64,000 nt of DNA from Escherichia coli (GTDB lineage: Bacteria; Pseudomonadota; Gammaproteobacteria; Enterobacterales; Enterobacteriaceae), in NCBI RefSeq assembly GCF_003991155.1, contig NZ_CP031293.1; one strand, written 5' to 3'. This document shows, in pieces, positions 6,001 through 9,000 of the stretch. Within the stretch, counting starts at the first letter, position 1. The number at the start of each line of letters is the position of its first letter. Made by a program: the position numbers.

Positions 6001-9000
6001 GATATTTAATTTATGAATATATTAAGAAGAAGCCTTGTCCGGTCGCCTTAAATCGACAAAAGGCATTGTGGCGCTTCTGTGTAGTCTCTGACCTTATCGT
6101 AATCATTAATAAATACTATTTATTCGTCGTTTGTATTCATTGGGTTGATTATTAAGGTGCCGTTCGTTGCTGTTGCAACCTGTTTGTCACCGTTAATTAT
6201 TTGTTACCCACAGAACAGAACTATGGAATGCGATCTGCTGATGATTAAAATTGAAAAAGTAATTAATAAAAATGACCTTAAGGCATTTATCGCTTTTCCG
6301 TCATCACTTTATCCCGACGATCCAAACTGGATACCCCCTTTATTCATTGAACGCAACGAGCATTTGTCTGCGAAAAATCCGGGGACGGACCATATCATCT
6401 GGCAGGCGTGGGTGGCAAAAAAAGCGGGGCAGATAGTTGGGCGTATTACCGCGCAAATAGATACCTTGCACCGCGAGCGTTACGGCAAAGATACCGGTCA
6501 TTTCGGCATGATTGACGCCATTGATGATCCGCAGGTTTTTGCCGCGTTGTTTGGCGCAGCGGAAGCGTGGTTGAAGTCACAAGGTGCAAGTAAGATCAGC
6601 GGTCCTTTCAGCCTGAATATCAATCAGGAAAGCGGATTACTGATTGAAGGTTTTGACACACCACCCTGTGCGATGATGCCACACGGCAAACCGTGGTATG
6701 CCGCGCATATTGAACAACTGGGTTATCACAAAGGCATTGATTTACTGGCGTGGTGGATGCAGCGAACCGATCTCACTTTCTCTCCGGCGCTAAAAAAACT
6801 GATGGATCAGGTGCGCAAAAAGGTGACCATTCGCTGCATCAATCGTCAGCGGTTTGCCGAAGAGATGCAGATCCTGCGTGAGATTTTCAACTCTGGCTGG
6901 CAGCACAACTGGGGATTTGTGCCGTTTACCGAACATGAATTCGCGACCATGGGCGATCAACTTAAATATCTGGTGCCGGACGATATGATCTATATCGCTG
7001 AGATTGATTCTGCACCCTGCGCGTTTATTGTCGGCTTGCCGAACATCAACGAGGCGATTGCCGATCTGAACGGATCGCTCTTTCCCTTCGGCTGGGCAAA
7101 ATTGCTGTGGCGTTTGAAAGTCAGCGGTGTGCGAACTGCGCGAGTACCGCTGATGGGCGTGCGCGACGAGTATCAGTTCAGCCGCATCGGCCCGGTGATT
7201 GCGCTGTTATTGATTGAAGCCTTACGCGATCCGTTTGCCCGCCGGAAGATCGATGCGCTGGAGATGTCATGGATCCTCGAAACCAATACAGGCATGAATA
7301 ACATGCTGGAACGCATTGGGGCGGAGCCGTACAAGCGTTACCGATTGTATGAAAAGCAAATTTAATACCAGCTAACTCAGGTTCATCTCCAGCGGCACCG
7401 CCGAGCGAATCAAATGGTGGCCTTCCAGCTCGATATCGTGGAGATTCTTTTTCACGGTCCGCACATGATCGCGTGCTGCGCGCTGGGCGACGTGCGGCAG
7501 CCGCTGCAACACCGCGTTGTAGATCCGCGCATGCTGGCGATCGATCTGCTTTTTTTGCTGTGGTCGATGGTAGAGATTATTTACGCTGGCAAACACTGAA
7601 TTAAACATCAGATCGGTCAATGATTGCAGCGTAAACACCAGCACCTGATTGTGAGAAGCCTGACAAATGGCGAGATGGAAAGCGTGATCCAACTGCGCAT
7701 GTTCGATCAGCGAAATCTCTTTGTTATTCTCACTGGCGGCGAGCATTTTTTCATAACAGCGAGTTATCACAACAAAATCAGCCTGCGTTCCCAGCGTTGC
7801 CGCCAGCCTTGCCGATTCGCCCTCCAGTAATGCGCGAACGTCGAGCAGATCGTACAGCGTTCGCGGCTGCGTGCTGAACAGATGAATTAGCGGGCTGGTG
7901 TCCTGCACCCGATTAAGCCGTGCGACACGAGAATCGCGACCCTGCGCCGTTTCAATAATCCCGCGCCCGCGCAGCACGGTCAGCCCTTCACGCAGTGCGG
8001 AGCGTGAGAAGCCGAGCTTTTCACACAGTCGACGTTCCGAGGGAAGCGGCTGACCGACCTTCAGTACGCCGTCGATAATTAACCGTTCGATACTCTCTGC
8101 AACCACTTCGCAAATAGGGCGACGTTCATCTTTCATTCCCGGACCTCGTGCACAGGTAGGACCAATTTTTCTGTTCTTAACTCGCAAAACACGCACATCA
8201 CGTAAGTGATTATGTTACATCAATTTAACATTGAGTTAACCAAGACAAGGTCACAGAGCTGGAAAAAAAATGGTCTGACCGGTAGCTAAAGAGATAGACG
8301 AAAACGAAAAGCCCGCTTAATAACTGTTCACAGAAGCAGCGCGCAAAAATCAGCTGCCACACAACACAACAAAGCGAAGCCTACTCATGAGCATCTTGTA
8401 CGAAGAGCGTCTTGATGGCGCTTTACCCGATGTCGACCGCACATCGGTACTGATGGCACTGCGTGAGCATGTCCCTGGACTTGAGATCCTGCATACCGAT
8501 GAGGAGATCATTCCTTACGAGTGTGACGGGTTGAGCGCGTATCGCACGCGTCCATTACTGGTTGTTCTGCCTAAGCAGATGGAACAGGTGACGGCGATTC
8601 TGGCTGTCTGCCACCGCCTGCGTGTGCCGGTGGTGACCCGTGGTGCAGGCACCGGGCTTTCTGGTGGCGCGCTGCCGCTGGAAAAAGGTGTGTTGTTGGT
8701 GATGGCGCGCTTTAAAGAGATCCTCGACATTAACCCCGTTGGTCGCCGCGCGCGCGTGCAGCCGGGCGTGCGTAACCTGGCGATCTCCCAGGCCGTTGCG
8801 CCGCATAATCTCTATTACGCGCCGGATCCTTCCTCACAAATCGCCTGCTCGATTGGCGGCAATGTGGCGGAAAATGCCGGCGGCGTCCACTGCCTGAAAT
8901 ATGGTCTGACCGTACATAACCTGCTGAAAATTGAAGTGCAAACGCTGGATGGCGAGGCGCTGACGCTAGGATCGGATGCGCTGGATTCGCCTGGTTTTGA

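What the first reader, a model, noticed from the sequence alone, without database searches (positions are those of the whole stretch)
7363..7374. Convergent yghO and glcC stop codons only 6 bp apart
The yghO-like gene ends at 7365 and glcC (opposite strand) ends at 7372, leaving no room for terminators. Transcripts must overlap at their 3' ends, which could couple expression of the lipid locus to glycolate regulation through transcriptional interference.
Basis: seen in the sequence. Interest (0 to 1): 0.2.

Follow-up and report, generated by a model that had tools for sequence, protein, structure and literature searches.

The report
Tight convergent yghO–glcC gene junction
Two E. coli genes that face each other really do end only 6 bases apart, but this is a common, already annotated and already catalogued arrangement, and nothing indicates that it links lipid synthesis to glycolate control.

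Summary
yghO (+, 6223-7365) ends with TAA at 7363-7365 and glcC (-, 7372-8136) ends with TAG at 7372-7374, leaving the 6-bp spacer TACCAG. The window is E. coli chromosome. The same junction is annotated in K-12 MG1655 and occurs in 4544 of 5426 complete E. coli genomes.

It is not unusual. In 300 kb of K-12, 12 of 50 convergent gene pairs have a gap of 6 bp or less, or overlap. No terminator-like hairpin lies at or near the junction, so 3' overlap of the two transcripts is a sound inference. It is also published: glcC-yghO is one of 165 convergent "excludons" in the MG1655 excludome (NAR 2025).

The proposed coupling of the lipid locus to glycolate regulation is not supported:
- Across about 36 other species, yghO stays with the divergent SPT-ACP-reductase-FAAL operon. 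glcC lies downstream only in Escherichia.
- K-12 has lost the lipid operon and the yghO 5' end to IS5.
- At least 187 E. coli genomes carry a ~75-bp hairpin repeat in the junction.

Verdict: real, ordinary and already known. Low interest.

The parts
6223..7365 (+). yghO coding sequence (380 aa; most homologues start at the second Met and are 374 aa). Predicted tandem-GNAT N-acyltransferase.
   Evidence: ORF and translation. RefSeq annotation of an identical genome. AlphaFold2 model pLDDT 96.4 with tandem-GNAT structural matches. 68 of 90 family members hit Pfam GNAT.
7363..7365 (+). yghO stop codon TAA
   Evidence: Sequence. The second common allele has TGA.
7366..7371 (.). 6-bp spacer TACCAG between the convergent stop codons
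   Evidence: Sequence. This allele is in 2936 complete E. coli genomes. Allele TGGCAG is in 1281. A 5-bp variant and a ~75-bp repeat-bearing variant also exist.
7372..7374 (-). glcC stop codon (CTA on the + strand, TAG on the - strand)
   Evidence: Sequence and translation.
7372..8136 (-). glcC coding sequence (254 aa; GntR-family HTH plus FCD domain), regulator of the glc operon
   Evidence: Pfam GntR and FCD hits. Annotation. The last 3-5 residues vary between Escherichia alleles: NLS, KQG, NKVGM.
7366..7872 (+). Stretch antisense to glcC in which yghO transcripts must terminate (inferred). C>G windows lie at 7366-7443 and about 7704-7872.
   Evidence: No intrinsic-terminator-like site. Fold z-score +0.84. 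C/G 1.2 in the first 78 nt and 1.3-1.75 at 339-507 nt past the stop. The mechanism is inferred, not shown.
7073..7371 (-). Stretch antisense to yghO in which glcC transcripts must terminate (inferred). C>G in most windows.
   Evidence: No terminator-like site on the - strand. Fold z-score -0.14. C/G 1.0-1.8 over the first ~300 nt past the glcC stop, peaking at 1.8 at 196-286 nt.
5814..6222 (.). AT-rich divergent control region between the FAAL gene (- strand) and yghO (+ strand)
   Evidence: Annotation. GC 38% against about 52% in the flanks. One promoter-like site at 5864-5891 on the + strand, not above shuffle expectation.
1762..5813 (-). Lipid operon: FAAL (4125-5813), SDR/epimerase-family reductase (3214-4128), ACP (2934-3182), serine palmitoyltransferase (1762-2934). 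Divergent from yghO and syntenic with it across genera.
   Evidence: NCBIfam: SPT equivalog at 599 bits (cut-off 500) and FAAL at 871 bits. Synteny in about 36 loci.
8137..8386 (.). glcC-glcD divergent promoter region, the source of glcC transcription
   Evidence: Annotation. LldR binding and GlcC control of this region are reported in PMC10272880 and PMC3265435.

Best explanation
This is an ordinary tight convergent gene junction at the seam between two gene blocks of the Escherichia chromosome. One block is a lipid module: SPT-ACP-reductase-FAAL, with the divergently transcribed tandem-GNAT gene yghO. The other is the glc (glycolate) locus, whose regulator gene glcC points back at yghO. Both genes end at their natural C-termini with only 6 bp between the stops. 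Neither has its own terminator in the spacer.

Any RNA polymerase that completes either gene therefore runs antisense into the other. It is then stopped inside it, most likely by Rho acting on the untranslated, moderately C-rich read-through RNA, and/or by head-on collision with polymerases from the other side. The two mRNAs thus have overlapping, complementary 3' ends.

Shown: the anatomy, its frequency, its phylogenetic distribution, its alleles, and the absence of terminator-like structure.
Taken from the literature: overlapping transcription in K-12.
Inferred: the termination mechanism, and that the overlap is a tolerated by-product rather than a selected regulatory link.
For: - Anatomy.
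- Frequency: 12 of 50 convergent K-12 pairs have a gap of 6 bp or less.
- No terminator-like site at the junction, no stable fold and no Rfam family.
- C>G composition of both read-through RNAs is compatible with Rho loading.
- Published: glcC-yghO is in the MG1655 convergent excludome. Overlapping bidirectional termination and polymerase collision are described as widespread for E. coli convergent pairs.
- By-product reading:
  - yghO keeps the lipid operon in about 36 loci from more than 15 genera, whereas glcC follows it only in the 4 Escherichia loci.
  - The nearest non-Escherichia GlcC proteins come from Pseudomonas/Stutzerimonas.
  - The junction is a mutational hot spot. Three alleles change the spacer, both stop codons and the GlcC tail. 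One of them places a ~75-bp repeat between the genes in at least 187 genomes.
  - K-12 has lost the yghO promoter and the lipid operon.
Against: - No direct 3'-end or strand-specific read data for this locus could be examined. Supplements were not held or did not list the genes.
- The excludon call comes from K-12, where yghO is an IS5-truncated remnant. Expression of intact yghO is unknown.
- The C>G skew is modest and is not a validated Rho predictor.
- The 6-bp spacing is kept in about 93% of E. coli genomes that have the junction, and in two sequence-divergent alleles. This could reflect selection rather than simple inheritance.
- The ExcludonFinder authors argue that excludon pairs in general show less single-cell co-expression.
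Confidence: 0.78

Rival explanations
1. Functional excludon. Convergent transcription of yghO and glcC causes reciprocal interference through polymerase collision and/or RNase III cleavage of the 3' duplex. Expression of the lipid module and the level of the glycolate regulator would then be mutually exclusive.
For: - Overlap is unavoidable given the 6-bp spacer.
- glcC-yghO is listed as a convergent excludon in MG1655.
- Excludon pairs as a class show reduced single-cell co-expression.
- The 6-bp spacing persists in two divergent alleles covering 4217 genomes.
Against: - The adjacency is confined to Escherichia, whereas yghO's conserved partner is the lipid operon.
- The lipid operon is on the other strand and cannot itself collide with glcC.
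- K-12 lacks the yghO promoter and the lipid operon.
- A ~75-bp hairpin repeat separates the genes in at least 187 E. coli genomes and in two other Escherichia species.
- About 24% of convergent pairs are equally tight.
- No expression data show reciprocity for this pair.
Confidence: 0.1
2. A cryptic bidirectional terminator is embedded in the coding 3' ends. Both transcripts would then stop at defined sites a few tens of nucleotides inside the partner gene, giving a short fixed overlap like the ynaJ-uspE type.
For: - Such overlapping bidirectional terminators are described as prevalent between E. coli convergent genes and need not resemble canonical intrinsic terminators.
- A weak hairpin, CGTGGAGATTCTTTTTCACG, lies at about 7436-7455 on the + strand.
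- A 7-nt inverted repeat, ATCTCCA/TGGAGAT, lies at 7385-7391 and 7439-7445.
Against: - The consensus scan finds no terminator-like site within 150 nt of the junction on either strand.
- Fold energies across the junction are not better than shuffles: z +0.84 and -0.14.
- The weak hairpin is AU/GU-rich and has no following U-tract.
Confidence: 0.1
3. Annotation artefact: one of the two genes really ends earlier, or is not a functional gene, so there is a normal intergenic region.
For: yghO is annotated as frameshifted in some strains (Nord58) and is 5'-truncated in K-12.
Against: - In the window, both ORFs are intact and end where their families end. YghO homologues at 74-83% identity align to the last residue.
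- GlcC relatives end within a residue or so of the same point.
- The YghO model is confidently folded to residue 380.
Confidence: 0.02

Closest known systems
Convergent excludons / overlapping 3' UTRs of convergent genes in E. coli (ExcludonFinder excludome, Sanmartin et al., NAR 2025, PMC12288877)
   Same: Adjacent genes on opposite strands whose transcripts overlap at the 3' ends. The pair glcC-yghO is itself in that paper's Table 1.
   Different: Reciprocal regulation has not been shown for this pair. The listing comes from K-12, where yghO is truncated by IS5. The window's strain has the intact gene and the lipid operon.
Overlapping bidirectional terminators between convergent genes (Ju et al. 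2019 SEnd-seq; collision model, bioRxiv 10.1101/2022.10.23.513370)
   Same: A convergent pair with no separate terminators, so termination has to be shared and overlapping.
   Different: The model relies on an RNA stem-loop in the overlap region. No such hairpin is detectable in the window's allele. The repeat-bearing allele in other strains does supply an 8-bp GC hairpin on both strands.
Rho-dependent termination of untranslated or antisense read-through RNA
   Same: Past each stop codon the RNA is untranslated and antisense to a coding region, with C>G in many 78-nt windows.
   Different: There is no experimental Rho dependence for this locus, and the composition signal is modest.
Small dispersed intergenic repeats of E. 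coli (REP/BIME, BoxC-type elements)
   Same: The ~71-bp element found in the junction of some strains is GC-rich and hairpin-forming. It occurs at a median of 7 intergenic places per genome in 5347 of 5426 genomes.
   Different: It is absent from the window. The 'BoxC-like' label comes from memory of the GGGTTAGGGTGAGGG motif and was not tested against a reference.

Membership tests
Convergent excludon | Neighbouring genes on opposite strands, tail to tail | tested here: met
   yghO is on the + strand and ends at 7365. glcC is on the - strand and ends at 7372.
Convergent excludon | Transcripts of the two genes physically overlap | not testable with these tools
   Inferred from the 6-bp spacer and the lack of terminators. 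Reported from RNA-seq coverage in MG1655. No read-level data were accessible.
Convergent excludon | Mutually exclusive or reciprocal expression of the two genes | not tested
   No expression data for this pair. Comparative evidence argues against a selected link.
Convergent excludon | RNase III processing of the RNA duplex | not testable with these tools
   The source paper could not validate convergent excludons with p19 dsRNA capture.
Bidirectional (overlapping) intrinsic terminator | GC-rich stem-loop in the overlap region that acts in both directions | tested here: not met
   No terminator-like site within 150 nt of the junction. Fold z-scores are +0.84 and -0.14. The only feature is a 7-nt inverted repeat 47 nt apart.
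Bidirectional (overlapping) intrinsic terminator | Sharp, Rho-independent 3' ends on both strands | not testable with these tools
   Needs Term-seq or SEnd-seq. Neither gene is named in the held supplements of two 3'-end studies.
Rho-dependent terminator | C-rich, G-poor untranslated RNA (rut-like) downstream of the stop codon | tested here: inconclusive
   C/G is 1.0-1.8 over 300 nt past the glcC stop. Past the yghO stop it is 1.2 at first and 1.3-1.75 at 339-507 nt. This is a crude measure.
Bacterial ceramide-synthesis gene cluster (Spt, bCerS, CerR, with ACP and ACP-synthetase): context of yghO | Spt homologue clustered with a reductase and an N-acyltransferase | tested here: met
   The SPT equivalog model is passed at 599 bits against a cut-off of 500. 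The SDR, ACP and FAAL genes are adjacent. YghO has a tandem-GNAT fold and is syntenic with SPT in about 36 loci and in distant relatives. The clustering criterion comes from PMC11334938.
Bacterial ceramide-synthesis gene cluster (Spt, bCerS, CerR, with ACP and ACP-synthetase): context of yghO | YghO is homologous to the characterised Caulobacter bCerS, and the locus makes a sphingolipid | not tested

The most novel reading that the evidence does not exclude
In Escherichia strains with the intact locus, the 3' overlap of yghO and glcC might be a selected excludon. Induction of the SPT/tandem-GNAT lipid module would lower GlcC and hence glycolate/glyoxylate use, or the reverse. The repeat-bearing allele (ST131, SMS-3-5, E. 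whittamii) would then be a natural 'uncoupled' variant. The evidence does not exclude this, but the comparative data make it unlikely.
Probability: 0.07. Interest if true: 0.4.

Novelty: already known. Interest (0 to 1): 0.1.

Why it matters
If the overlap were regulatory, it would be one more example of an excludon, linking an uncharacterised sphingolipid-type lipid module to a carbon-source regulator in E. coli. As it stands, the junction is a routine feature of compact bacterial genomes. It is already annotated in thousands of genomes and already listed in a published excludon map. Its practical value is small:
- It is a reminder that glcC and yghO 3' ends are antisense to each other when RNA-seq or knock-outs at this locus are interpreted.
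- Natural alleles with and without a 75-bp hairpin repeat exist and could serve as a ready-made test pair.

Tried and rejected
1. Canonical intrinsic terminators near the junction: none. The only two hits in 5800-8600 are far upstream and are no more than shuffles give.
2. Structured RNA: no Rfam match at E<=1. MFE folds are not better than shuffles.
3. Direct 3'-end evidence was sought in five papers, with no result.
   - ExcludonFinder: no supplements held.
   - Adams et al. 2021 eLife: neither gene in four held files.
   - Synthetic 3'-UTR valves paper: no supplements held.
   - Dar & Sorek 2018: no supplements held.
   - TERMITe 2025: neither gene in six held files.
4. Terminators after yghO in Serratia, Pluralibacter and Citrobacter: only weak hits at chance level, so nothing can be said about an ancestral yghO terminator.
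5. Sequence-level function for YghO: no Pfam, NCBIfam or PDB sequence hit for the E. coli protein itself. The family and fold became clear only from homologues and an AlphaFold2 model.
6. Copies of the junction repeat in the window or in 322 kb of K-12: none found locally. The genome-wide search was needed.
7. Whether the repeat-bearing or the 6-bp junction is ancestral: both types occur outside E. coli proper and no target-site duplication is evident. This is left open.
8. Literature search for a described E. coli sphingolipid locus or a yghO function: nothing specific.

Full report
**1. What is in the sequence**

The window is E. coli chromosome. The stretch 5900-8500 is 100% identical to many complete genomes, and 4551 of 5426 complete E. 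coli genomes hold it.

- The + strand ORF ending at 7365 (TAA at 7363-7365) is annotated as yghO, 6223-7365.
- The - strand ORF ending at 7372 (CTA on the + strand, TAG on the - strand, at 7372-7374) is glcC, 7372-8136.
- Six bases, TACCAG (7366-7371), separate the stops.
- K-12 MG1655 has the same arrangement: glcC ends at 3129036 and yghO at 3129043.

Neither end is an annotation artefact. YghO homologues at 74-83% identity align to the last residue. GlcC relatives from Pseudomonas/Stutzerimonas end ...RLEGWA*, within a residue or so of the E. coli end.

**2. Is it unusual?**

No. I read the annotation of six 50-kb blocks of K-12, chosen only by coordinate.
- Of 50 convergent CDS pairs, 12 (24%) have a gap of 6 bp or less, or overlap. 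Examples are yadE-panD 3, pdeD-yoaE 3, ypdC-fryA 2, yebB-ruvC 1, yebW-pphA 0, and nei-abrB, mntP-rlmA, exoX-ptrB and yfeH-ypeB at -4.
- Within the window, the other CDS-CDS convergent gaps are 34, 49 and 154 bp.

The junction is at the short end of the range but is a common type.

**3. Terminators and overlap**

- The consensus scan finds no terminator-like hairpin with a T-run within about 150 nt of the junction on either strand.
- There is no Rfam match.
- RNA folds across the junction are no more stable than shuffled sequence, with z-scores of +0.84 and -0.14.
- The only symmetry is a 7-nt inverted repeat with its arms 47 nt apart.

A polymerase finishing either gene must therefore continue antisense into the other, so the 'transcripts must overlap' inference is sound.

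The overlap is also published. A survey of 58 MG1655 transcriptomes lists glcC-yghO among 165 convergent 'excludons' (PMC12288877, Table 1). That paper notes that excludon pairs have short intergenic distances, and that p19 dsRNA validation failed for convergent pairs.

Overlapping bidirectional termination, helped by head-on polymerase collision, is described as widespread for E. coli convergent pairs.

Where the RNAs actually stop is not known. Both read-through RNAs are untranslated and moderately C>G: C/G reaches 1.8 within 300 nt past the glcC stop, and 1.3-1.75 at 339-507 nt past the yghO stop. This is compatible with Rho but does not prove it. I could not retrieve any 3'-end map that names these genes.

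**4. What the two neighbours are**

glcC encodes a GntR/FCD regulator. It activates the divergent glcDEFGBA operon (PMC3265435).

yghO has no Pfam or NCBIfam hit of its own, but three lines place it.
- 68 of 90 diverse family members hit the GNAT family.
- An AlphaFold2 model (pLDDT 96.4) matches tandem-GNAT acyltransferases such as 2wpw, 5kga, 7q3a and MshD 1ozp, with E from 1e-15 to 1e-12.
- It is divergently transcribed from a four-gene operon across a 409-bp, 38%-GC region. The operon encodes a fatty acyl-AMP ligase, an SDR-type reductase, an acyl carrier protein and a serine palmitoyltransferase. The SPT equivalog model is passed at 599 bits against a cut-off of 500.

**5. Comparative test of the 'coupling' idea**

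Synteny. A scan of one genome per species found 44 YghO loci. Locating the neighbouring proteins by tblastn gave two results.
- The SPT-ACP-SDR-FAAL / YghO module is intact in about 36 loci from Escherichia, Shimwellia, Citrobacter, Pluralibacter, Pseudocitrobacter, Serratia, Tatumella, Klebsiella indica, Erwinia, Rosenbergiella, Rahnella, Cedecea, Sodalis, Hafnia, Pantoea and Pseudomonas.
- GlcC lies downstream of YghO only in the four Escherichia loci.

Other downstream neighbours. In Serratia the next gene is a diacylglycerol kinase. In Pluralibacter it is a convergent usp gene 74 bp away. In Citrobacter amalonaticus it is a deoC-like gene.

Distant relatives. Family members at 34-42% identity sit directly after an SPT-like gene.

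So yghO's conserved partner is the lipid operon, and its abutment to glcC is a genus-specific seam. Because the four-gene operon is on the opposite strand, only yghO could interfere with glcC.

**6. The junction is polymorphic**

Among 4544 E. coli genomes that hold the junction:

| Allele | Sequence at the junction | GlcC tail | Genomes |
|---|---|---|---|
| 1 (window, K-12) | TAA-TACCAG-CTA | ...PLEMNLS | 2936 |
| 2 | TGA-TGGCAG-TCA | ...PLEMKQG | 1281 |
| 3 | ~75-bp GC-rich repeat between the stops | ...PLEMNKVGM | at least 187 |
| rare variant | 5-bp spacer | not examined | seen in one sampled genome (AHB5) |

- Allele 3 includes ST131 EC958 and SMS-3-5.
- The repeat also sits at this site in E. 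whittamii and Escherichia sp. E1V33, but not in Escherichia sp. MOD1-EC7003.
- It forms an 8-bp GC hairpin on both strands.
- It belongs to a dispersed intergenic repeat family, with a median of 7 copies per genome in 5347 of 5426 genomes.

Nine of the thirteen differences between alleles 1 and 2 over 301 bp fall in the 19 bp around the stops. The seam is therefore a hot spot, not a conserved element. Which state is ancestral remains open.

**7. K-12 as a natural knock-out**

K-12 homology to the window begins at window 6263, directly next to IS5. K-12 lacks the LptF/G paralogues, the whole lipid operon, the divergent promoter region and the first 13 yghO codons. The published overlap in K-12 therefore involves a promoter-less remnant, and the lipid-side partner of any coupling is entirely missing there. 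From my own knowledge, not checked here, glc regulation was worked out in K-12 strains.

**8. Conclusion**

- The 'no room for terminators, so 3' overlap' step is well supported and already in the literature.
- The step to a regulatory link between the lipid locus and glycolate control is unsupported, and the comparative data make it unlikely.
- Best explanation (confidence about 0.78): a tolerated, tight convergent junction with read-through terminated inside the partner gene by Rho and/or collision.
- Rivals: a selected excludon (about 0.1), a cryptic bidirectional terminator in the coding ends (about 0.1), and an annotation artefact (about 0.02).
- Novelty: already known. Interest: low.

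Noticed in passing
window 1762-7365: E. coli (but not K-12) carries a five-gene module: serine palmitoyltransferase, ACP, SDR-type reductase and fatty acyl-AMP ligase, with the divergent yghO. 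The module is conserved in more than 15 genera of Enterobacterales and in a Pseudomonas. Its gene set parallels the bacterial ceramide-synthesis cluster (Spt, bCerS, CerR plus ACP and ACP-synthetase). I found no paper describing it in E. coli.
   Followed up: partly
window 6223-7365: YghO is annotated in K-12 as a 'putative DNA-binding transcriptional regulator'. It models confidently (pLDDT 96.4) as a tandem-GNAT acyltransferase. Even distant family members sit next to SPT-like genes, so it is probably the N-acyltransferase of the lipid pathway. The family is large: 6502 clusters at 50% identity.
   Followed up: partly
L005 447-521 (E. coli E22); also L018 and L020; absent from the window at 7366-7371: A ~65-80-bp GC-rich, hairpin-forming repeat (GGGGCGA-TCCC-TCGCCCC ... 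GGGTTAGGGTGAGGG) occupies the yghO-glcC junction in at least 187 E. coli genomes, in E. whittamii and in Escherichia sp. E1V33. It moves the glcC stop codon into the repeat. It belongs to a dispersed intergenic repeat family with about 7 copies per genome. It looks BoxC-like from memory, which was not verified.
   Followed up: partly
window 1-6262 compared with K-12 (L002 12147-13341): In K-12 an IS5 copy replaces everything left of window 6263: the LptF/G paralogues, the lipid operon, the promoter region and the first 13 codons of yghO. yghQ follows the IS5 instead.
   Followed up: yes
window 1-1727: A second LptF/LptG-like permease pair lies next to the lipid module and travels with it in several genera: Citrobacter, Pluralibacter, Pseudocitrobacter, Erwinia, Hafnia and Shimwellia. 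It may be a dedicated exporter for the module's product.
   Followed up: no
window 7372-8136: The closest GlcC proteins outside Escherichia/Shigella in the 5.8-billion-protein search come from Pseudomonas/Stutzerimonas, at about 70% identity. No other Enterobacterales appear among the top 120 clusters. This hints that the glc regulator, and perhaps the locus, was acquired horizontally.
   Followed up: no
window 5601-6400: The divergent region between the FAAL gene and yghO has 38% GC against about 52% in its flanks. Such AT-rich regions are typically bound by H-NS (my inference, not tested). If that holds here, the module may be silent in laboratory culture.
   Followed up: no
window 22062-22750: In the identical reference genome, the prepilin peptidase gene upstream of the gsp type II secretion cluster is annotated as frameshifted.
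   Followed up: no
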